A stretch of 62,291 nt of DNA, counting the filler, from Basidiobolus ranarum (lineage: Eukaryota): NCBI GenBank assembly GCA_040143965.1. It is 6 parts of 6 records of this genome, joined end to end, with 100 filler letters (N's around TTAATTAATTAA, not from the genome) between each part and the next. Parts side by side here need not be neighbours in the genome. Positions count along the whole stretch, not along the records: positions 1 to 10,308 come from JASJQH010000718.1; 5 more parts are not named here. One strand, written 5' to 3'. Below, piece by piece: positions 1 through 10,308 of this stretch. Under the pieces are notes generated by a model, which was not told where the DNA came from, searched no databases, and worked only from the letters and a program-made list of their open reading frames with translations. Each line of letters starts with the position of its first letter. The first letter of the stretch is position 1. The translations under genes were made by a program, and so were the position numbers.

Positions 1-120
1 TCACATCATCAAAATCACTGGCAGAATGCAAGCCAACAATATTGGGACGGTTCTCTGATGGTTTTGCTATTTTGAAGAATGGATCCAATCCGGATCAAAT
101 CGATTTTATTTTTGTTAGGG
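1..120 (+). repeat. Dispersed direct repeat, copy 1 (copy 2 at 9160-9279)
   Basis: Ungapped manual alignment gives 102/120 identical nucleotides. Confidence 0.95.
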
Positions 121-245
121 TATATTTTGGACTACAAATGGGTTATTCATAAATCAATTCTTGATGAAATATCTTTTATCAGATGCTTTCGGAATTCCTT
201 ACTCCTATGTAACAATCTTATCCCAAAAAAGTATATGAAAATTCT

Positions 246-602
246 ATGAACATAATAGCAAATAGGTGTATATCTATGATGTCAACATTAGATAACATCA
301 CAATAATTTACCAAAAATCATACTCTAATGCTTCGAAAACTGTTCTTTGTCTAAAAAATATTCCAAATGATATAAACCTTATAAATAGTTTTTTTCAACT
401 TTTCAAGGAATCTACTCATACAATATTTAGTAAAACACATACAAAAATATCAAATATAACTATTGTTGATAGTTTGTTAGATTATGTAAAAAATTTTTGC
501 AATTGTGGACTGATTACAGGAAATGTGTCAGAATTTAGATCTAAAGAAATACTCATTACAAAATATGGATATATGTCTAATTATATACATAATATTTTTT
601 AA
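246..602 (+). pseudogene. 3' part of an unknown, probably viral gene
   Basis: 118-aa ORF; the same frame runs back to the contig start through several stops. The stop codon lies in a T6A6 palindrome. No motif recognised. Confidence 0.4.
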
Positions 603-606
603 AAAA
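595..606. terminator. TTTTTTAAAAAA palindrome between convergent gene ends; putative viral terminator
   Basis: Perfect 12-bp palindrome overlapping the stop at 600-602 (+) and adjacent to the stop at 612-614 (-). Confidence 0.5.
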
Positions 607-611
607 CTTAT

Positions 612-1255
612 TTATATAAGATGCTTAATTATTGTAAATTTCATCTTTCTATCTCCTTTTAGGATATAGTATTGGTTGTTTGTTTCAGGTATTCCTAGGG
701 CAGTAGGGTCAAAAAGTTCTACTAAAAATTTATCAAGGAAAATTCCCATATCTTCTTTCAAGGAATATTCCTAAAAGTATGCATTTAAAATATTTCTAAC
801 ATCAGAAACACATGTATTTGATATTTGATCATATTTCAGATGATGGGTTTTCACATGTCTAACTTTATCAAATAATCTTATGATGTTTGATTTAATTGGA
901 GTTGACTTAGTAAAGTATGTTGACAAGGTATCTTTATCAGATGAACTTTTTCTACAACCTTTGGGTACAATTATTTTTGATTGTATATCTTTAAGAGGAT
1001 GTAAAAGATTTTTGTTTTTACATATTTTTGTAAAATCTTCCTGGCTCAATGAAAGTCTAGACATGGCATATTTGGTAATATTTTCATCTTGAAAAATATA
1101 TTCAAGAGCACTAATACTTCTCTGAAATCTAAAAATTCTTTCTTTGAAAATTTCAAACAAATTGCTACCCATTGAGGATTTGTGACCGTAAAAATATCTT
1201 GATTGTCTAATGATAGACCATCGAGACCATTTGTAAAATCACTAGAAAAATTCAT
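612..1255 (-). pseudogene. Unknown, probably viral protein (~210 aa), disrupted
   Basis: ATG at 1255 (MNFSSDF...) with a probable frameshift near 1175 into the 771-1172 ORF. After the TAG at 771-773 the frame stays open for 52 more codons (EYSLKEDMGIF...KFTIIKHLI*) to 612. Confidence 0.5.
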
Positions 1256-1301
1256 AGTATAATGTTATTATCATATTTTGTCTACATTGTAAAATTCTCT
1301 T

Positions 1302-2299
1302 TTAAGAGTCTTTGGTGTTCAGCAACTCAAAATTGTTATTTCCTGTTCCAAGAGGAATTTTTTTCCAACTATAATCAACAAATATACTGACGTAAGGTTA
1401 TCATGGTCATATTTAAATATATTTTGGATATTATCTCAAGCCCTTTCAAACAACATTGCTGCAAGTATATTTTGTTCTAAAAATATTGGATTATTTTTTA
1501 CAAATGGTGAGATTTTTCCATACCATGTCATAAAGTCTGATATCATATCAATATATTTTTTCTTGCCTTGATAAATATTAGAAATTTCCTGATGAATCAC
1601 ATTTCTAGCAGCCTTAATTCCAAAATTTTTGTATACATCATAAACATGATTTGAATATATTTCCAATACTATTTGGGTATCTAGTTTGCATATATCCCTA
1701 ATGTTTGATCCTTGTAAGATTGCCTTGTCTTCTAAATACTTTATATGAGTTATTGTAAATATATTATTTACCAGAATTTCTAGACATTTAATACACATTA
1801 CTAGATCTAATGTATCTTCCAAATATACATGAATAACCCCAACAAAAAACGGAGAATATGCCACCTGAAAATTTGGAAATATATGTTCAGATAACTCTTT
1901 AAGACAACTGAACCTTATTTGATGCAATTGGATGGTATCTAATACAATCCAGAGAACCATATTTTTGCTTAGATGAACTTTGTCAGAAAATAATCCCATC
2001 AATTGACCCACAATGTACCAATCATTAGGAACAGCATCTAATCCAGTTAATGTACTGGATATGGATTTTACAAAATCCTTTGGGCATATATGACTGATTT
2101 TGTGTTTTTTTATATACTTTTTTGGTAAATATGTCAGAGAATATTTTTGAGCTAATTTAGGATCAAGAATATTTTCTATGGACATGGTCACGGGACCATT
2201 AGACATTCTGACATGATGAAACAAGCTTAAGTTGCTTTGAGTTGCAACTCGTAAAATTTCCTGAGAAGATCTAATACCAATAGGAAAACCTGGTTCCAT
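1302..2299 (-). pseudogene. rpb1: RNA polymerase largest subunit (Rpb1/beta') C-terminal part, viral type
   Basis: EPGFPIGIRSSQEI..ATQSNLSLFHH matches PGEMVG..AAQSIGEPATQMTLNTFH. NHVYDVYKNFGIKAAR matches N..DI..VLGIEAGR, and AAMLFERA matches MRCSFEET. Past a TGA (1436-1438) and a frameshift in the A7 run (1358-1364) it reads GKKIPLGTG, the conserved G..AP.GTG C-terminal motif. Confidence 0.9.
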
Positions 2300-2369
2300 G
2301 ATTAAGTCTGGATTGAAAACTCATAGACGGCATACTAGTAAAAATAAACTTCAGATTTATAAAGAGAAA

Positions 2370-2861
2370 ATGGACAAAGATATGAAAAATAAGTTTGATG
2401 ATAGTCTACCTAAAGATGACATTGTTGATATTGCCCAGAAAGCTCTGAATGATATGATTTATACTGTTATATTTGATCTTAGTAGCAAGATGATCGCTAA
2501 CAGAATCGATCAAGATCAAGTCTTATCATGTGCAACTAGTTTTACATTAAAGTATATGTCAAGTGGTGTAAAAATTAGAAAAAAGCCTGCACCTTGGTCT
2601 AGAAAGACCAAAGGAAAAGTGGTAAAGTCTACTAAATTGTCTAAGGTAAAACAAGAATTAGAATGGGTAAAACATCCTTCTAATCCAAATTATCTTTTCT
2701 TGAAATTGTTTACATGTGAAGGAGCATATCCTTAGTTAGATATGTCTTCTAAACAAATTATTGCAATGATTGATGATACAAGTGTCAGAGAAATAAATTC
2801 TCAAGACAATGCAACACTCTTTTTAAATGGTATTTCTTTGGATCAGTCAAAAAATCTATAG
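2370..2861 (+). pseudogene. Basic viral protein; C-terminus recalls a domain conserved in irido/marseille/pithoviruses
   Basis: Lys-rich middle, then WVKHPSNPNY...GAYP*LDMSSKQIIAMIDDTSVREINSQD. The frame continues through the TAG at 2733-2735 to the TAG at 2859-2861. Start at ATG 2370 is assumed. Family resemblance is from memory only. Confidence 0.45.
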
Positions 2862-2875
2862 ATTTTTTAAAAAAT
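2862..2875. terminator. ATTTTTTAAAAAAT palindrome; putative viral terminator
   Basis: Perfect 14-bp palindrome starting at the base after the stop codon at 2859-2861. Confidence 0.5.
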
Positions 2876-2932
2876 TAGTTTTGAAAAAATAATTGGGTAA
2901 CATCCGTACATATATAATTTGTTTTACATCTC

Positions 2933-5083
2933 ATGGATACTTGTACAAATAATATTTAACGATTGATAGATGAGAATCCTACTCATCCAATTTTACAAAA
3001 TTTGGGTCCAATTCTTAGTGAGAATACATTAAGTAATATACTTGCAATAAGTATTCATCATATATATATTAAAGCACCGATTAAGCTTGAATATATCATG
3101 CTTGAAAATGTGTTTGATGTGGTATCTCCTGGCAAAAATCGCAATGGTATAACTGCAATTAGTTTGGAATTTGATGAATCAGATGATCATATACAAAAAG
3201 TTTGTAAGGGAGAAGTACCTATAAAACCAAGAAAATCTAAGACAGGAACTATTCTTAGATTCATATATAAAAATAATATAGCTAATATAACAAAAGATCA
3301 TGACAAAACTATATCAGCTATATGTCATAAAGGAAATGGTGATGAATTGATAAAAGACTTTTGTGAGATTATACAACATATTCCTTTATTAGATGCCGGT
3401 AGTCCAGATATAGTCAACGTGCATTATTTGATCACAACATCATGCCCAAGATTATTAGAAAAAAATATTATGTCTGATGTTGTTCTTACTGACAGAGATT
3501 TGCAACAATTTGTATCAACATTTGAGAATAAAAACTTACCAAGTGTCTCTCAGAGTGTTTCACTCTACATTCTTTCTCTAGATAAAGATAATTTGTATGT
3601 ATCATGCACAGCAAAAAATATTAATAAGCATATAGTTTTTCAATGTAAAATGGTACAAAATCTATCAGACATAGAATATACTGTGGTGTTAATTGTAAAA
3701 ATTATAACTGTTTACAATAAAAATTTTCCACATCTGTTAAAGATATCTTGTCCATTTTTGGATGAATCAACTGTATGTAATTCTCCCAAATTATCAGATA
3801 TGGATTTGGCAAAAATCAGTGGCGTAACCAATCTACAAAAAGAAGTTCCCAAATTGTTTATAGAAAATTACTCTAGAGAGTGTCCTATTTTACCAATTAT
3901 GGTCTCTTTATCAACCGCAAAAAGTTTGATTGCTCAAGGAATTTTGGTTATCCAATATCCATATCCTCCCAATAAGTATTCACAATACTATGTTGCCCCC
4001 AGGAAAAATTATGTGGGGCTCAAAAAAAATTGTCTGGGGAACCAAAATATATTTTCTCATCTTATAACTTGTTATACAACTAACCATATGTTACGGCCAA
4101 TGAGCAAAACTTATAAGTATTATCATGGAGAAACAACAATTAAATACAATAATCAAAACAGAATGGTAAAATCTTTGCGCCTATCAGATAGAAATAAAAA
4201 TGGTCCCATACCAACTATTGTATTAGGAAATTTAGGAATTACAAAAGAGTACATAAGAATGGGACTTTCTCAGAGTCCATCATCTTTTTTATCTGCAATA
4301 CTGTTTGCCATGGGGTATGACCTGGATGATCAAACTGTTAGTACAGTGAGAGAGCACCTAGATGACACATTTCTAAATGTTATATGCCAAGAACTAGATG
4401 GAGTTAATTTGGATTTGGCCAAGCAAACTTTTACAAATTCCACAGAATATCTTGATGGATTTATATATTACTGGTTTTTTGAAGAAACATATAAAGTAAA
4501 CATCCTGATTATAGAATTGGGTGGCCCTAATGGGTTTAATCTTGGAATTCCTAAAAATGGGAAATATTTGTGGCAAAATAGTTTTGATCAAGGTATTATC
4601 TTATTTAGAAATGCAGGTAGGTTATATCACGAAAAATATACAATTTATGAACTAATAACCGATGACAAAAATAATTTTAGATTTAACCTGGAAGATGAAC
4701 TCAATAGATCATTACTAAATTTTAAAGAGACATTGATTATGAAATATAGAATACTTGATGATAATCTAACTTGCATAAAAAATATAGTAGAAAGTATAAA
4801 GCTACAATACATAAATTATGATGGAATATGGACAGCAGTTGTGACATTGACCAGAAAAATATTTAAAACCTTCTGTAGCCCACTTTGGAAAGTATCTACT
4901 GTGGAAAAACTACCATGGGTGTATTTACAAAATCATGTTGAATATATTAACTGTATTTGATCTGAAAATAATTTACCCCAAATAAAATGGAGAACATCAA
5001 CCAATTCAGAAATATATTTACCAAACAGAGCTTCTGTTGAAAAATATCAAACATGGTTGTATGAAATTTATAAAAAATTTTGA
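2933..5083 (+). pseudogene. NCLDV early transcription factor large subunit (VETF-L)
   Basis: Motifs LFIENYSRECP.LPI, YVGLKKNCLGN..IFSHLITCY, EYIRMGLSQSPSSFLSAIL and YLDG..YYWFFEETYKVNILII are collinear with those I recall from irido/marseille/pithovirus VETF-L. In-frame ATG at 2933, premature TAA at 2957 and TGA at 4958, frame open to 5083. Confidence 0.75.
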
Positions 5084-5143
5084 AAAGTTGAGATTTGTTT
5101 TAATACTAATACAACACATTTTACTATTTGTAAATTATTTATA

Positions 5144-5764
5144 ATGGGTCAAGAATTGCCAATTATTCAAGAACTTTCCTGGGTGACTTTGGATGCATTT
5201 GATCCCAAAAAAATTATCATAGGAGATGCAGTTAAAACTGGAGGGGAATATTTCTAATCAAACATACTTTATATGTATGATAATAGCCATGAACCAAAAA
5301 ATTTATGTATTACAACTCCTCATAATTCAGAAAGTTACATAATTTGCAATAAAGTTGAGCGAGAAACATTTGGAAATGTTGAAACAAATCATACTAATGC
5401 GTCATTTGTGTTTAATGGAAAAAATAATAATCATGTCCAATTTTACGCATTCTTTGGAAAAATTCCAAAAAAGATTAAGCAACTTTCTGGAATATCAAAT
5501 ATTAGTTTACCTTTTGCCAACTATGATGAAAAATCTATTCTATATGCCAGATTAATAGAATCTAATAGTAGAATAATATATACTGCTGCATATGACAACA
5601 CCAACCAGGTGGATGTTCAAGAATTAAGACAGGTTCTAACTAGACCAGCCTTTATTTTTACCCTTACATATAAGGATAAAGCTCAAGCAAAAGTAAGAGT
5701 TCAGTTAGCTCAGATGTATGTTAATAAATATTTTAATGTCTTTCCATTAGCTAATCAAAATTAG
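5144..5764 (+). pseudogene. Viral ssDNA-binding-like protein (DUF2738 type, OB-fold)
   Basis: FDPKKIIIG..., LCITTP, ILYARLIES..IYTAAYD and KVRVQLAQMYV. ATG 5144 is in frame with the listed ORF through one premature TAA at 5255. Confidence 0.6.
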
Positions 5765-5779
5765 GCTGTATAAAAATGG

Positions 5780-5796
5780 AGATTTTTAAAAAATCT
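5780..5796. terminator. AGATTTTT-A-AAAAATCT palindrome; putative viral terminator
   Basis: 8-bp inverted arms between the SSB-like gene and rpb2. Confidence 0.45.
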
Positions 5797-5818
5797 TTTC
5801 TGTCGACTTTTGTTGAAT

Positions 5819-6208
5819 ATGTTTTGTAAAAATCTTCTCAAAAAATTCCTAGATGAATATGGATACACATATAATTCTGGACCTGATTATCAAAAAGTTG
5901 TTGGGTCATTCAAAAAAGAGTTAGAAAGCATGATAGGGAAACTAATCAAACTCAAAATAAAAACTATGCCTTCTGAATGCATAGCCAAAAAGAAGACATA
6001 TGAGTATACATTTTTAACAGATTCTTCTCATATATTATGTCATAACCCCACAATAACCAATAAAGGGTATTTTATTATCAATGGCATAGAAAAAACTTGC
6101 TTAAACCAAGAACATAAAAATAGTTATATTATATATTTATCTAAGGATGACCGGGGTATATTATGTGAAACCAGGTTTCCATTCAGTATCCTTCCTTTAA
6201 GGCTTTGA
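5819..6208 (+). pseudogene. rpb2: RNA polymerase second-largest subunit (Rpb2/beta) N-terminus, truncated
   Basis: PSECIAKKKTYE matches P.ECR.R.LTY and KGYFIINGIEKTCLNQE matches GGYFIINGSEKVLIAQE. Homology ends at ~6208, where composition changes. Confidence 0.85.
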
Positions 6209-6239
6209 CTTAAATCTTTGTTCCATATCGATTTGGATT

Positions 6240-7760
6240 TGTCAGCTGCATGCAATGAAATCTCAAAGGCAAGACAGAATGATCCATCAATATGGATATA
6301 TGGGAGTTATTGATAAACTTGACAGAAGCTGGGGAAGAGGGCATTAGAGAAAAGTGGAAGCAACTTTTGACTCTGCTTTGAGGAGAATACTATATCTTCA
6401 TGCCTTCAGAAGTCTGCAAGAAAATATACAATAAGACTCATGAGGATAGAAAGTGTGAATTGAGAAATAGGAATTTTGATTTTGAGTCTGCAAAGACACA
6501 ATTCCAATTGCATTTTTGCTTGTATGGACCAGAAGCAACCGTTGTGGCCTCAACTTTAGAGACAAAAGATGTTCTAAATAGATATCTACCACTGCTCAAT
6601 GAGACTTTGCAGCAACTGTTGATGGAGGTTGCAGAGTTCAAAACAACATTTCAAGACACTATGGCAAGAGTAATCAACAGAGATGTAAAGAGAAAAGCAA
6701 GAAAATTTATTGAATCAGAAGATATTCCCAAAGGCAAATTGGAGCAGTCTAGACTGTTGCCGAGACATATTAGATCACTCCAAATTGAAGAGACTCCTGA
6801 TAAGGTATCAATTTCACAAGAAGAATCTACACAACTCACTACTAGAATTGAGGTAACACCTCCAATACGGGCAAGAGCCCAAGAAGTTGGTTCATCAGCT
6901 AGTAGTACACATCAACAGCAATGCCAGCTTGGAAGAGTCCGTGATGTTTCTCCCGTTTTTGATGAAGAGCAAGCAGTCAATCAAGAACCAGAAAGAGGAT
7001 GGCCTGCATTTTCATGCATTGTAGCATGCAATTTACCTGATTCAACCAAACCAACCAGTGAGCTTTTTACATCTGGAGAAGAGTCAGCTCCAAGGAGCAT
7101 GCCACCAGAAAGAAATACCAGTTTAATGCGTACAACCACACAACAGCAACAAAGGCCAACTGCAAGAATTATTGAACCTTCCACTTTGTTGGATGAAGAT
7201 CTGACACCTGAGAGTAATCTACTAAGAGAGCAATCCACTACAACGCGTACCCCCACAAGACCAAGACAATGGGTGTTTGAGAGAGATAGTGAAGCTCTTA
7301 CTTTGTAGAAGAGACAAGAACTGCCTCACACAAACCACAAGCTAGACAACTTGCTCCAAAATGTGTTGCAATGTGACCGTCGTCATGGTCAGATGAAAGA
7401 GATGAAGATTGCACTGTGGTTGAAGAAGCAATAACAGTCAAGCATGAACCTCAAGTGAGACATTCCAGGTTGGCACGTAGAGCTGCATGCCAGCAGCAAT
7501 GGCTGGCTGACCTATTAAGTGAAGGCTCCACATCTGAAGAAGAGACTGTAGATAGAAACAAACCGCAAACTAGACTGGACAAACCAATGCCTACCACAGT
7601 GCCTCAGCCTCAAGCCACAACTCATGCTGGCTGAGGTAGAGGAACTTCAGCAGGATCAAACTGACCAACTCAGCCCAGAGGTTCAAGCAACCTTCCTTCT
7701 GTGGAAATATCAAGGAGACAACAAAAGTAACAGAAGCAAATCAGCCTGTACTGCTTCAGA
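6240..7760 (+). mobile_element. Degenerate TE-like ORF (302-aa core at 6400-7308), possibly the 3' end of a non-LTR retroelement
   Basis: Higher GC than the viral genes and CpG-poor. The frame extends upstream through TGA stops, and S/T/Q/E/P-rich ORF pieces follow downstream. It interrupts rpb2. No catalytic motif is visible. Confidence 0.3.
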
Positions 7761-9159
7761 CCTAGGCAACTGCTGAATACTCTTGTTAATATTTACATTA
7801 TCCTATCTTTACTGTTTAGTGCATCATGCAAAATTGATATGGATTGCAGTTAAATGTAGCATCAATTGCTTTAGTTGGATCACAATTGCTTATGTCTTTA
7901 TGAAACACTGACAGTGTGAAACCATCATATATCAAAAAAATCATTGAAAGCCTATTAATAAAAGCAATTTCACTACAATTCAATGAAAAATGTCTGTCAA
8001 TAAAAAGCCTGTGCAGCTGTATTGACTTGATATGGCTCAATCCATTAACATTCTCACCCAATTAGAAGCTTACATGATTGAATGAATAATTTGCTGATCT
8101 AAAAATGATGAATCAAGCAATCCTGATCACTACTCTCATACTGCAGATCAATTCATCATCAAGTACTGTGATTTGTCACTAGCATGCCAAAACTACTGGT
8201 GTTCTGTAATGCAGGAGCTGTTGGGCCCAATTGAAAATCAGGATACTATATTAGCAAGGGACGAATGATTGGCCTAAAAACATGTGAATGTCTTGGTTAT
8301 ACATTTGAATGGGTAAGTTACAGCATAAATTGTTTATTGTCACACATTCAGTAATTTGTAAGTTATAAACTAGGGAATGAACTTCACTTTGTCAGTTACC
8401 CAAAATCTTAATTTGGCAATACTAAATGGGGTAGCTTGGTATGGTCTGGCACAATATCTCCAATAAAATCATTGTGTCTGATTGTGGTGGGATAGTGCCA
8501 TATTGTTCTTTATAGTGCATGATTGAGTGTAATAGGACCCAGCCATGGTAATTTACAGATTACACCAGATGGTGTGCTAGCAGGCTGGATCAAGCAGCAC
8601 AATCTGACCTGGTCCAATGGAACAAGTCTAGTATTATTGTTTTAGCCATGGGGAAATCTATTCAAGCAATGACACATCTACTTGTGTCAGAACATTTGTT
8701 GACTGCAAGTCAGGGGTATATTGGCTGAATTCTTTACCAAAATTTGCCACAATAAAGTAGCTTATTCTCATTATGAATGGTTTCAAGAGTCTGCTATTTT
8801 CCAAGTGTCAGTGCTGTTTAATATTTCATATATTTAGCAATTTTCCAACATTAGTTTGCTGGTAAAGCCTATTGATGTTGTTGAGTTATGTCTGATCAGT
8901 CCATATGTGCATATGTAGAGACTAAACATAGCAAGATTCTTGTATTTTTTGATTCCCATGATGGCTGGAATACAAGCCAAAAATATCTAAACAAAGGCAT
9001 GCATATTAAGTCAAAATCATACAGCAGTAAACCCAGTGCTTTGCCATTTGAAAAATATATTTTTGAAAATATTGCCAGAAATTAATAACACTTGCCAAAT
9101 ATGATAATTAATATTTTAACATATATGAATACTATCAAAATACTGTCAAGAAACTGCTG

Positions 9160-9279
9160 TCACACCATCAAATTCCCTGGCAGAATGCAAGCCACCAATA
9201 TTTTGATGGTTCTCTAATGGTTTTGTGATTTAGAAGGGTGGATCCAATCTGGACCTAATCAATTTTATCTTTGTTAGGG
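9160..9279 (+). repeat. Dispersed direct repeat, copy 2 (second viral-like fragment)
   Basis: 85% identical to 1-120; all three CpGs of copy 1 are TpG/CpA here. Preceded by the AT-rich ORF 8888-9085. Confidence 0.9.
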
Positions 9280-10308
9280 ATTCTTTGAGCACAATAACCG
9301 CAACAAAACCCAATAAATGAACACAGAGTATCCTAACAGAAACTTGAGGATTGTTATTGTCAGAAAACCATCACATTTAATCTATTTGTGATTGACCAAT
9401 TACTTACCATAATAAAATTGTGAAGTTAGATTTGATTTTAATTGATTTTTTCAGTTGCAAGAGTGAAGTTTCAAGTTCTTGCAAAATGGTTGTGCATGAT
9501 TGGCTACAATTTAGAGAACTCCCTAACAAGAAAAAATTTAAATTTGCATTTCATACTTTTTTTGGATTGTTTTATAAAGGTATTATGCTGGTATTGCAAC
9601 AATTTTCTGATAGTTTCTCTAACAGTCTGCTTTTCCTTCTATTTTCACATGATTTTTCTACCACTATATTTGTGTTTTCTCTGGTTTTCCTCTGGTATTC
9701 ATTCCCTTATTTTCCATAGGGACTATGGATCAACACATGTGTGAGGAAAATAACCCAAATATTACACATTTACTACTTGAATGCTAATTTGTCACCTTTG
9801 AAATTGCCAGTTTCTTTGATATATTCTCCTGAATATTCTTTTAGAGTTTTTCATACCAAAGGTTTAGCTCATGTCCTACACAAGTTTGTACCCATATCTC
9901 CATCAGAGCCCACTATTGTATTAATGTTGCTGAATCAACATTCTTCCTGCTATTAGGCAGAGATCCTGCAATATTGTGCCACTCTGTATTAAGTTCTTCC
10001 CAGATATCTGCATGATCAACACCAGACTGAATGTCAAGTTGAAAATTCTTCATTAAAGCCACTTTCTGCATACTTACACTGTCTTTTTCCCTTCATACTT
10101 TGTAAATACTCCCCAAGCACTTTAACTGCTTTTATACATCCTTGTAGTGTAACACTAACAAGGGTGCTTTGCAGTGCTTATATGGCTTTGTGCTTGCCTT
10201 TAAGTTTGGGGCCAATTTCAACACTTTGAAAATTGAGAGTTGAGGTTGGAGAGTCATGAGTTTTATTTGCTGGTGTTTTGGCTTGTTGAGAGGTGCCAGG
10301 TGTTGGAT

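What the first reader, a model, noticed from the sequence alone, without database searches (positions are those of the whole stretch)
1302..2369. Rpb1 apparently split: C-terminal part as a stand-alone gene, reminiscent of archaeal A''
Seen: the ORF starts M-EPG just before the trigger-loop motif, and a divergent gene occupies the upstream DNA, so there is no room for the catalytic N-terminal part. Known: many archaea split this subunit into A' and A'' near this point, whereas most NCLDV keep it whole. Inference: the split is a native feature of this virus and could serve as a lineage marker. The trigger-loop motif is also unusually divergent (TQSNLSLFHH versus TQMTLNTFH).
Basis: partly seen in the sequence, partly recalled or inferred. 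Interest (0 to 1): 0.75.

Follow-up and report, generated by a model that had tools for sequence, protein, structure and literature searches.

The report
Split giant-virus RNA polymerase gene relic
This is a broken copy, lodged among fungal repeats, of a giant-virus-type gene that encodes only the rear half of the largest RNA polymerase subunit; the split is real and inherited from the virus, but it was already reported for this virus lineage in a moss and in early-diverging fungi.

Summary
Confirmed, with corrections. Window 2299→1436 (−) encodes the C-terminal (trigger-loop) half of Rpb1, starting MEPG, with in-frame stops and a divergent gene upstream. It is a decayed copy: a premature stop, a frame change, CpG o/e 0.15, and host repeats on both sides. 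The split is native. An intact paralogue in the same assembly (38% identical) has the same start and both neighbours. NADFDGD-family halves on other contigs end in their own stop plus a T/A palindrome. Two environmental contigs carry both halves as separate genes. It is not new: Maumus 2014 described this RP1n/RP1c fission, its archaeal analogy and its value as a lineage signature, and Gong 2020 listed the lineage ('fundsalphaviruses') in Basidiobolus. Other NCLDVs are split too, so a split alone is a weak marker. A narrower feature I did not find in print: one well-supported clade (100/100) lacks most of the foot domain, replaces the G-E-P start of the trigger helix with L/M-x-x, has Ser at yeast N1082 (58 of 58), and has an altered bridge helix, while Q, L, F and H are kept. 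This scan already noted the lineage on other contigs of this genome.

The parts
1436..2299 (-). Viral Rpb1 C-terminal-half gene (RP1c): open part, MEPG start to premature TGA, 287 aa
   Evidence: PF04998 positions 69-254; 80% to intact P0111; 39% to intact paralogue L002
1302..1435 (-). Broken 3' remainder of the same gene: beyond the premature stop, frame change near 1358-1364, last stop TAA at 1302-1304
   Evidence: similarity to relatives continues to about 1349-1358
2216..2242 (-). Trigger-loop motif TQSNLSLFH (residues 20-28), preceded by LRVA where cellular enzymes have GEPA
2370..2861 (+). Divergent neighbour gene of unknown function, interrupted by TAG at 2733-2735; homologues lie head to head with RP1c in L002, L030 and L033
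   Evidence: only weak fold hits (E 0.04-0.25) to ranavirus/cedratvirus/marseillevirus/pithovirus 'orf58-like' or uncharacterised proteins
2863..2874 (.). T6A6 palindrome just after the divergent gene's stop; likely transcription end signal (inferred)
   Evidence: 3 T5+A5+ sites in 140-6210 against 0.23 expected, 1 of 500 simulations as high
771..1172 (-). Downstream gene of unknown function; its homologue lies downstream of the L002 paralogue as well
   Evidence: E 1e-5 to L002:1483-1926; also L030, L136
246..606 (+). Small ORF (246-602) ending in a T6A6 palindrome (595-606)
   Evidence: no family hit above threshold
3098..5053 (+). DUF5757 gene (NCLDV-type); open to 4960, similarity continues past the stop
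   Evidence: (E 4.5e-16); found in 4 of the 6 related loci scanned
5143..5793 (+).
   Evidence: E 4e-13
5819..6226 (+). First ~130 codons of a viral Rpb2 gene, cut off at the right end of the viral segment
1..141 (.). High-copy host repeat on the left flank
   Evidence: 39 other contigs among 40 scored candidates; 1599 first-look candidates
6293..7800 (.). High-copy host repeat on the right flank
   Evidence: 39 other contigs at 83-94% among 40 scored; 419 first-look candidates

Best explanation
A 6-kb fragment of a Pithovirus-related 'fundsalphavirus'-type element has integrated among repeats of a Basidiobolus genome and is decaying. In this virus lineage the largest RNA polymerase subunit is natively made as two proteins from two unlinked genes. 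RP1n (about 550-670 aa) carries the clamp, the NADFDGD site and the bridge helix and stops about 35 aa after the TGY motif. RP1c (about 300-360 aa) starts 17-25 aa before the trigger loop and carries the jaw and C-terminal switch region. Shown: gene layout, separate stops, conserved start, decay of this copy. Inferred: in the live virus the halves assemble non-covalently, as archaeal A'/A'' and yeast-plasmid ORF6/ORF7 do, with a short Rpb2 and Rpb5, into a cytoplasmic Pol II-like enzyme. The trigger loop still selects NTPs through the kept Q, L, F and H. The stretch between the two halves (the foot) has mostly been dropped. This window's copy makes no full product.
For: Intact paralogue L002 (358 aa) has the same MEPG start and the same up- and downstream neighbours at only 38-39% identity, so the layout is older than either insertion. 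Catalytic halves in the same assembly end 37-38 aa after the TGY motif in their own stop plus T5A5 or T7A4 (L022, L021); the 5' part with its own start is on L024. Of 7 metagenome loci, all 7 have a stand-alone C-half and 2 (L032, L033) also carry the N-half as a separate, opposite-strand gene 3-8 kb away. Of 150 best profile hits, 58 have the clade's trigger-helix form; none of these 58 has NADFDGD or a bridge-helix motif before the loop. Of the 36 top N-half hits after the self hit (P0025-P0060), 33 had a bridge helix my pattern could find, and all 33 end 31-48 aa after it. Host Pol I, II and III are whole across this region, with 181-246 aa between the two motifs. Decay: CpG o/e 0.15 against 0.82 in L002's ORF; 20 of 58 differences from P0111 fit one C>T or G>A change towards the window, against 10 the other way; end branch 0.19 against 0.06; repeats on both flanks. 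Literature. Complex prediction for the L033 pair: weak support, score 0.59 against best control 0.00, runs agree in at least 84% of contacts, partner pLDDT at least 70. That mark was reached by 51 of 78 solved complexes and 2 of 108 mismatched pairs, but at 0.60 or under by only 5 of the 78 and by all 4 mismatches that passed; archaeal A'/A'' is solved, so the pass may be from memory.
Against: No N-half could be tied to this exact insertion: the N-halves sit on other short contigs with less CpG loss (0.63-0.86) and may belong to the L002-type copy. Pairing of the two protein families on one DNA rests on 2 contigs. Family membership by Gong's own criterion (DNA polymerase tree) was not tested. 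In the tree without motif columns, the join of this clade with moss-type RP1c sequences has only 83/74 support (38 rows), or 97/83 with one more row. No read or RNA data could be laid on the locus. P0111's called start lies 13 codons upstream of MEPG, so the exact start codon is inferred from the family.
Confidence: 0.93

Rival explanations
1. A whole viral Rpb1 gene was broken by rearrangement after integration; the C-terminal piece only looks like a gene.
For: This copy is a pseudogene among repeats, and the neighbouring Rpb2 really is cut off by the integration edge.
Against: The same start and neighbours recur in a 38%-identical paralogue and in environmental contigs. None of 58 clade members is fused to a catalytic half. 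N-halves have their own stops. Maumus reports dN/dS below 1 for both halves in the moss copies.
Confidence: 0.02
2. The halves are rejoined at RNA or protein level (intron, trans-splicing, split intein), as with the group I intron in Marseillevirus RPB1.
For: Noumeavirus RPB1 looked like two ORFs and proved to hold a self-splicing intron.
Against: Here the halves lie on opposite strands with several genes between them. Each ends near a T/A palindrome. The C-half has no N-terminal extension that could hold an intein part in most members (median trigger-loop position 24). I ran no Rfam or intein search.
Confidence: 0.03
3. The C-half is an archaeal A'' acquired by transfer, so the split is inherited from archaea rather than convergent.
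For: The best PDB sequence matches are archaeal A'' chains (E 2e-30); the split lies in the same region.
Against: Scores of 41-88 bits against a cut-off of 421 for TIGR02389. Matches start at A'' residue 63-66, so the archaeal lead is absent. The clade nests inside viral sequences (97/95) away from the single archaeal row. A'' also scores best because it lacks the long eukaryotic insertions (inference).
Confidence: 0.02
4. The source is not a virion-forming virus but a capsid-less cytoplasmic DNA element derived from NCLDVs (a larger analogue of yeast linear plasmids). The split-gene reading is unchanged.
For: No capsid family among 64 ORFs from 6 related loci; none found in the own genome or G001. 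G001 is a 17-kb record with 145-nt inverted ends. L034 carries a protein-primed-type DNA polymerase (PF03175). Maumus also found no capsid or packaging ATPase.
Against: The capsid search rang in no control and missed a 91%-complete giant-virus bin too, so it is uninformative. The loci are partial. G001's end repeat also occurs internally and G001 lacks RP1c and Rpb2, so it looks like a fragment. Gong reports some fungal capsid and A32 hits.
Confidence: 0.3

Closest known systems
RP1n/RP1c split of the Physcomitrella patens NCLDV-like regions (Maumus et al. 2014, PMC4083422; passages and parts 1, 3, 4 of the RP1c alignment seen)
   Same: Two separate ORFs for the largest subunit, compared there with archaea and proposed as a lineage signature; same gene module (DNA pol B, D5, SNF2 helicase, capping enzyme, UDG, FLAP, RPB2, RPB5, TFIIS); no capsid seen; Ser at the N1082 position.
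   Different: Moss RP1c keeps the glycine/proline start of the trigger helix (SIGQPTTQIALSSFH). The window's clade replaces it (L/M-x-x-A-TQSNLS) and forms its own branch.
Fundsalphaviruses of early-diverging fungi (Gong, Zhang, Han 2020, PMC7017919; main text parts 1-2 of 3 and supplement parts 1-2 of 7 seen)
   Same: Endogenous Pithovirus-related elements in Basidiobolus meristosporus and B. heterosporus, with RP1n and RP1c listed as separate shared genes, often parted by other genes, and with stops and frameshifts. A 76%-identical homologue of the paralogue is labelled B. meristosporus.
   Different: B. ranarum is not in their table. They give no split point, foot or trigger-loop analysis in what I read. 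Membership by their DNA-polymerase tree was not tested here.
Split Rpb1 of other NCLDVs (BFVD entries: Diadromus pulchellus ascovirus 4a 423 aa, Pithovirus sibericum 764 aa, Orpheovirus 791 aa; IIV-6 176R/343L)
   Same: Break between bridge helix and trigger loop. 176R/343L is listed as one core gene in PMC5923455; that these are the two halves is recalled.
   Different: Those forms keep about 70 aa after the bridge-helix motif and about 70 aa of lead before the PG motif (median trigger-loop position 89), and keep G at the hinge.
Archaeal Rpo1N/Rpo1C (A'/A''; PDB 2PMZ, 3HKZ, 2WAQ, 7OK0)
   Same: Works alike: trigger loop on a second chain, break in the same region.
   Different: A'' has a ~60-aa lead and GEPG-TQMTLRTFH; scores are far below the family cut-off; most likely convergent.
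Yeast linear-plasmid RNA polymerase K2ORF6p/K2ORF7p (Sykora et al. 2018, PMC6211774; passages and section 10 seen)
   Same: Beta-prime divided at the archaeal-like position, reduced enzyme, halves shown to associate in vivo.
   Different: There beta is fused to the front of beta-prime and most of the clamp is lost; here Rpb2 (874 aa) and RP1n are separate genes and RP1c is over twice as long.

Membership tests
Fundsalphavirus / moss NCLDV-like lineage | RP1n and RP1c encoded as separate ORFs | tested here: met
Fundsalphavirus / moss NCLDV-like lineage | Shared module: DNA pol B, D5, SNF2 helicase, capping methyltransferase, RPB2, RPB5 | tested here: met
   Met across related loci L030, L032-L035; the window piece itself holds only RP1c, DUF5757, an Rpb2 fragment and unknowns
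Fundsalphavirus / moss NCLDV-like lineage | DNA polymerase groups with fundsalphaviruses next to Pithovirus (Gong's criterion) | not tested
   No DNA polymerase in the window piece; no named reference sequences available as tool inputs
Fundsalphavirus / moss NCLDV-like lineage | RP1c groups with moss-type RP1c | tested here: inconclusive
   99 SH-aLRT with motif columns; 83/74 (38 rows) or 97/83 (39 rows) without them. P0166 is taken as moss-type by eye.
Fundsalphavirus / moss NCLDV-like lineage | Integrated in host DNA, with stops and frameshifts | tested here: met
   (assembly evidence only)
Fundsalphavirus / moss NCLDV-like lineage | No capsid or packaging ATPase in the module (Maumus) | tested here: inconclusive
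   controls silent; partial loci
Archaeal Rpo1C (A'') | Break between bridge helix and trigger loop | tested here: met
Archaeal Rpo1C (A'') | TIGR02389 score over 420.65 bits | tested here: not met
   40.9 (window), 87.6 (P0001), 73.9 (P0111), 58.1 (L033)
Archaeal Rpo1C (A'') | About 60-aa lead before the PG motif and GEPG before TQ | tested here: not met
Rpb1 of multisubunit RNA polymerases (works like) | NADFDGD and bridge helix in the partner half; Q, L, F, H of the trigger loop | tested here: met
   Q, L, F and H were required by my search pattern, so their 58 of 58 is by construction; 19 of 150 hits lacked the strict pattern, several being 5'-partial. In the 12-row alignment all four are invariant without that filter.
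Rpb1 of multisubunit RNA polymerases (works like) | RNA synthesis by the assembled enzyme | not testable with these tools
   Only a weak complex prediction
Yeast linear-plasmid (VLE) RNA polymerase | Beta fused to the N-terminal part of beta-prime | tested here: not met
   Separate 874-aa Rpb2 and 547-aa RP1n on L032
Host Pol I/II/III largest subunit | Contiguous bridge helix to trigger loop, GEP-TQMTL(N/K)TFH | tested here: not met
   Three host genes found apart and whole; 25-32% identity to the query for two of them

The most novel reading that the evidence does not exclude
The clade holding this gene (at least 58 clusters at 50% identity, from fungal genomes and metagenomes) runs a stripped Pol II-like enzyme not yet described. 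The foot is mostly gone: about 50-60 aa lie between the bridge-helix and trigger-loop motifs across both halves, against 181-246 in host Pol I-III. The glycine that opens the G-E-P start of the trigger helix is L, M, I or V in 57 of 58, and N1082 is Ser in 58 of 58. The facing bridge helix is changed in step: against host Pol II's DTAVKTAETGYIQ, A>G in 33 of 33, D>S in 25 of 33, K>S in 23 of 33, Q>N in 30 of 33. If these changes compensate each other, this is a natural redesign of the most conserved moving part of multisubunit RNA polymerases, and a sharper lineage marker than the split.
Probability: 0.45. Interest if true: 0.55.

Novelty: new member of a known kind. Interest (0 to 1): 0.27.

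Why it matters
The locus itself is a dead fragment of a lineage known since 2014 and 2020, and the idea it prompted is in print. Its value is corrective. A split Rpb1 recurs in several NCLDV groups, archaea and yeast linear plasmids at about the same place, so marker-gene pipelines should expect two genes and should not treat a split alone as diagnostic. The clade's altered trigger helix and bridge helix and its missing foot offer a ready natural variant for testing how the polymerase active site tolerates change, for example by transplant into yeast Pol II.

Tried and rejected
Divergent neighbour as a displaced foot domain or polymerase subunit: no support. The profile comparison with the host Pol II region gave probability 0.1%, there were no Pfam hits over cut-off and no ESM Atlas hit at 0.9 or more. 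The model is modest (pLDDT 62), PDB matches are generic helical hairpins with Z at most 6.5, and viral hits are weak (best E 0.04). A profile of the ~70-aa lead of other viral C-halves found no match at E below 0.1 in the window piece, in the related loci or in the long leads of clade members; the same profile also misses host Pol II (E 0.27) and archaeal A'' (E 0.6), so this is a weak negative. The AlphaFold model of the intact C-half has pLDDT under 50 for residues 1-47, so its continuous helix 9-33 is not evidence about the hinge. IMG/VR scan with the C-half alignment: 43 pattern hits, none confirmed. Phage collection: nothing. Capsid searches were uninformative; 3 of 5 requested records were not held. 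About 30 of the 80 loci carry TQL(V/I)LR(T/V)FH in whole ~890-aa chains; I set these aside as probably phage enzymes (my reading, untested). For about 20 my bridge-helix pattern found nothing, so they are unclassified. Mycodnaviridae: the abstract places them with Imitervirales/Algavirales and the text has no hit for RNA polymerase or split. Passages of PMC6031395, PMC9546926 and PMC10881513 said nothing on this split. Searches for a description of the foot loss or hinge change listed none by title or abstract start. I did not read most listed papers, the library lacks most subscription journals, and unread supplement parts (Gong parts 3-7, Maumus PDF and RP1n alignment) may bear on it.

Full report
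Setting. The window is six contig pieces joined by N linkers. Only 1-10308 matters; it is the whole of contig G000:C718 in a 65-Mb assembly of 13,754 contigs. A paralogue of the gene carries the source label Basidiobolus ranarum, and a 76%-identical homologue is labelled B. meristosporus. I take the host to be Basidiobolus on that basis.

The observation. A 287-aa frame runs from ATG 2299 to TGA 1436-1438 on the minus strand and begins MEPGFPIGIRSSQEILRVATQSNLSLFHH. It matches Pfam RNA_pol_Rpb1_5 from profile position 69 onward (E 4.8e-9). A family profile aligns to archaeal A'' from residue 63-66 onward (E 2e-30). Three in-frame stops lie within 20 codons upstream, and a divergent gene starts at 2370. 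What was missed is that the copy is broken: similarity continues past the TGA, the frame changes near 1358-1364, and the last stop is at 1302-1304.

The copy is an integrated relic. The viral stretch, about 246-6226, has 29% G+C and holds RP1c, a DUF5757 gene, the first 130 codons of Rpb2 and four genes of unknown or guessed function. The divergent gene, the DUF5757 gene and the gene before Rpb2 are also interrupted by stops. High-copy host repeats flank it on both sides. CpG observed/expected is 0.15 in the ORF, against 0.82 in the intact paralogue and 0.71-0.85 in two host polymerase loci. Against the 80%-identical intact relative P0111, 20 of 58 residue differences fit a single C>T or G>A change towards the window, 10 fit the reverse, 19 a transversion and 9 need several changes. 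The window's end branch is three times P0111's (0.19 against 0.06). Methylation-driven decay is the inference. No reads could be laid on the junctions.

The split is native. (a) L002 (contig C4071) holds an intact 358-aa RP1c, 38-39% identical, with a stop two codons before the same MEPG start and homologues of both neighbours in the same orientation. (b) PF00623 and PF04998 searches of the assembly found three whole host subunits and separate viral pieces. L022 carries NADFDGD and the bridge helix and stops 37 aa after the TGY motif, followed by T5A5. L021 stops 38 aa after it, followed by T7A4 and an Rpb5-like gene. L024 holds the 5' part. (c) All 7 metagenome loci have a stand-alone C-half of 314-329 aa. 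L033 and L032 also carry the N-half (673 and 547 aa) on the opposite strand, 3 and 8 kb away; L030 and L033 keep the divergent neighbour head to head. (d) Of the 150 best hits of the family profile, 3 contain NADFDGD, and all 3 are of the ordinary G-E type; none of the 58 clade-type proteins has it. (e) T/A palindromes are enriched in the viral stretch (3 against 0.23 expected, 1 of 500 simulations as high) and in five related loci 34 of 47 lie within 64 bases of a gene's 3' end. A role in transcript ending is inferred.

How it most likely works. RP1n supplies the clamp, metal site and bridge helix; RP1c supplies the trigger loop, jaw and C-terminal region. They should assemble non-covalently as in archaea. 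In the yeast linear plasmid pGKL2 the large subunit is divided at the same place and the two proteins associate in vivo (PMC6211774). A prediction for the L033 pair gave weak support: 0.59 against a best control of 0.00, runs agreeing in at least 84% of contacts, partner pLDDT at least 70. The mark was reached by 51 of 78 solved complexes and 2 of 108 mismatches, but at 0.60 or under by only 5 of the 78 and by all 4 mismatches that passed, and a like complex is solved. Related loci carry DNA polymerase B, D5, SNF2 helicase, capping enzyme, UDG, an XPG/FLAP nuclease, an 874-aa Rpb2 and a 142-170-aa Rpb5, with no Rpb3, 6, 10 or 11 hit among 64 ORFs of six partial loci. That fits a compact cytoplasmic transcription set.

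The trigger loop. The motif is divergent, but catalytic positions are kept. In the 12-row family alignment T, Q, S, N, L, S, F and H are invariant. In yeast, substitutions at Q1078, L1081 and H1085 are mostly lethal, N1082A is lethal, and N1082S is viable in several double mutants (PMC3325174, Table 1 passages), so Ser here is a tolerated change. Among 131 hits with a strict motif, 73 keep a G/S-E/Q-x or x-x-P start of the trigger helix and 58 do not; the latter have L, M, I or V at the glycine position in 57 of 58 and Ser at N1082 in 58 of 58. In a tree built without the motif columns (58 rows picked by me from about 160), the 30 hinge-less rows form one branch at 100/100, against about 20 changes for shuffled labels. 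The hits came from a profile of that clade, which favours its coherence. The top N-half hits show a changed bridge helix (A>G 33 of 33, D>S 25 of 33, K>S 23 of 33, Q>N 30 of 33 against host Pol II) and end 31-48 aa after TGY. With the loop at residue 17-25, about 50-60 aa span what is 181-246 aa in host Pol I-III. Calling the missing part the foot, and the yeast residue numbers outside the loop, rest on my recall. Compensation between the two helices is inference; the model is unreliable there. In 22 of 58 clade members the loop lies beyond residue 35, and their leads did not match a profile of the lead of other viral C-halves, a weak test.

Comparison with what is known. Maumus et al. [quoted passage not shown] Gong et al. 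2020 (PMC7017919) place the moss elements within Pithovirus-related 'fundsalphaviruses' of 14 fungi, including two Basidiobolus species, and list RP1n and RP1c among shared genes; their gene maps often show other genes between the two. The moss RP1c keeps SIGQPTTQIALSSFH, and this assembly holds a fragment of that type too (L020), so at least two sub-lineages entered this genome. Other NCLDVs are split as well: 19 of 80 IMG/VR loci end 66-79 aa after the bridge-helix motif, three loci (two distinct proteins) show the separate C-half nearby, and BFVD lists C-half-length polymerase entries for an ascovirus, pithoviruses and Orpheovirus (judged by length, so intron-split pieces are not excluded). 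'Most NCLDV keep it whole' therefore overstates the rarity.

Earlier notes. Reports on other contigs of this genome reached the same lineage. I had found the Gong paper before opening them, and I do not count them as support.

Verdict. Real, native and already described: a new, dead member of a known kind. Interest 0.27. What remains open is the clade's foot-less, hinge-altered active site, for which six literature searches listed no description, and whether these elements have capsids at all.

Noticed in passing
L022:1-1150 (G000:C3482): Downstream of the N-half lies a 1.1-kb array of 85-127-bp repeats rich in T/A palindromes, recalling (from memory) the palindromic repeat arrays of pithoviruses.
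   Followed up: partly
L002, L021, L022, L024 (G000:C4071, C13352, C3482, C9327): Short contigs with only viral genes, open frames and little CpG loss (0.63-0.89), unlike the window copy, L003 and L020 (0.11-0.24): young inserts or free viral DNA.
   Followed up: partly
L020:664-966 (G000:C6744): Fragment of a second kind of stand-alone C-half with the moss-type motif SIGQPTTQIALSSFH, so two sub-lineages are present in this genome; L130 (C8248) is a heavily broken N-half.
   Followed up: partly
L136 (G001, 17,169 bp) and L035: Record with 145-nt inverted ends that also recur inside; encodes DNA pol B, capping enzyme, helicase, RP1n, UDG, a TFIIS-like ORF and a 1138-aa apparently secreted protein (lectin domain hit on the L035 counterpart), but no RP1c or Rpb2.
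   Followed up: partly
L034:12858-15689: A protein-primed-type DNA polymerase (PF03175) two genes from a clade RP1c, where other loci have an ordinary family B polymerase.
   Followed up: no
P0061; P0067: P0061 is a clade N-half fused to a TFIIS zinc ribbon. P0067 is a whole 767-aa subunit of another virus in which bridge helix and trigger loop are joined with almost no foot, so foot loss also occurs without a split.
   Followed up: no
window:2370-2861 and homologues: The divergent neighbour's weak fold hits cluster in ranavirus orf58-like / FV3 049L, cedratvirus, marseillevirus and pithovirus proteins (E 0.04-0.25); a lead to a shared small viral family.
   Followed up: partly
window:6293-7800 and 9160-9290: High-copy, strongly CpG-poor repeat with a 302-aa ORF of no known family; a second copy of the left-flank repeat lies near 9160-9290.
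   Followed up: no
L025 (G000:C7912): A further intron-bearing eukaryotic largest-subunit gene start, Pol III-like by eye, besides the three whole host genes; possibly a duplicate or second haplotype.
   Followed up: no
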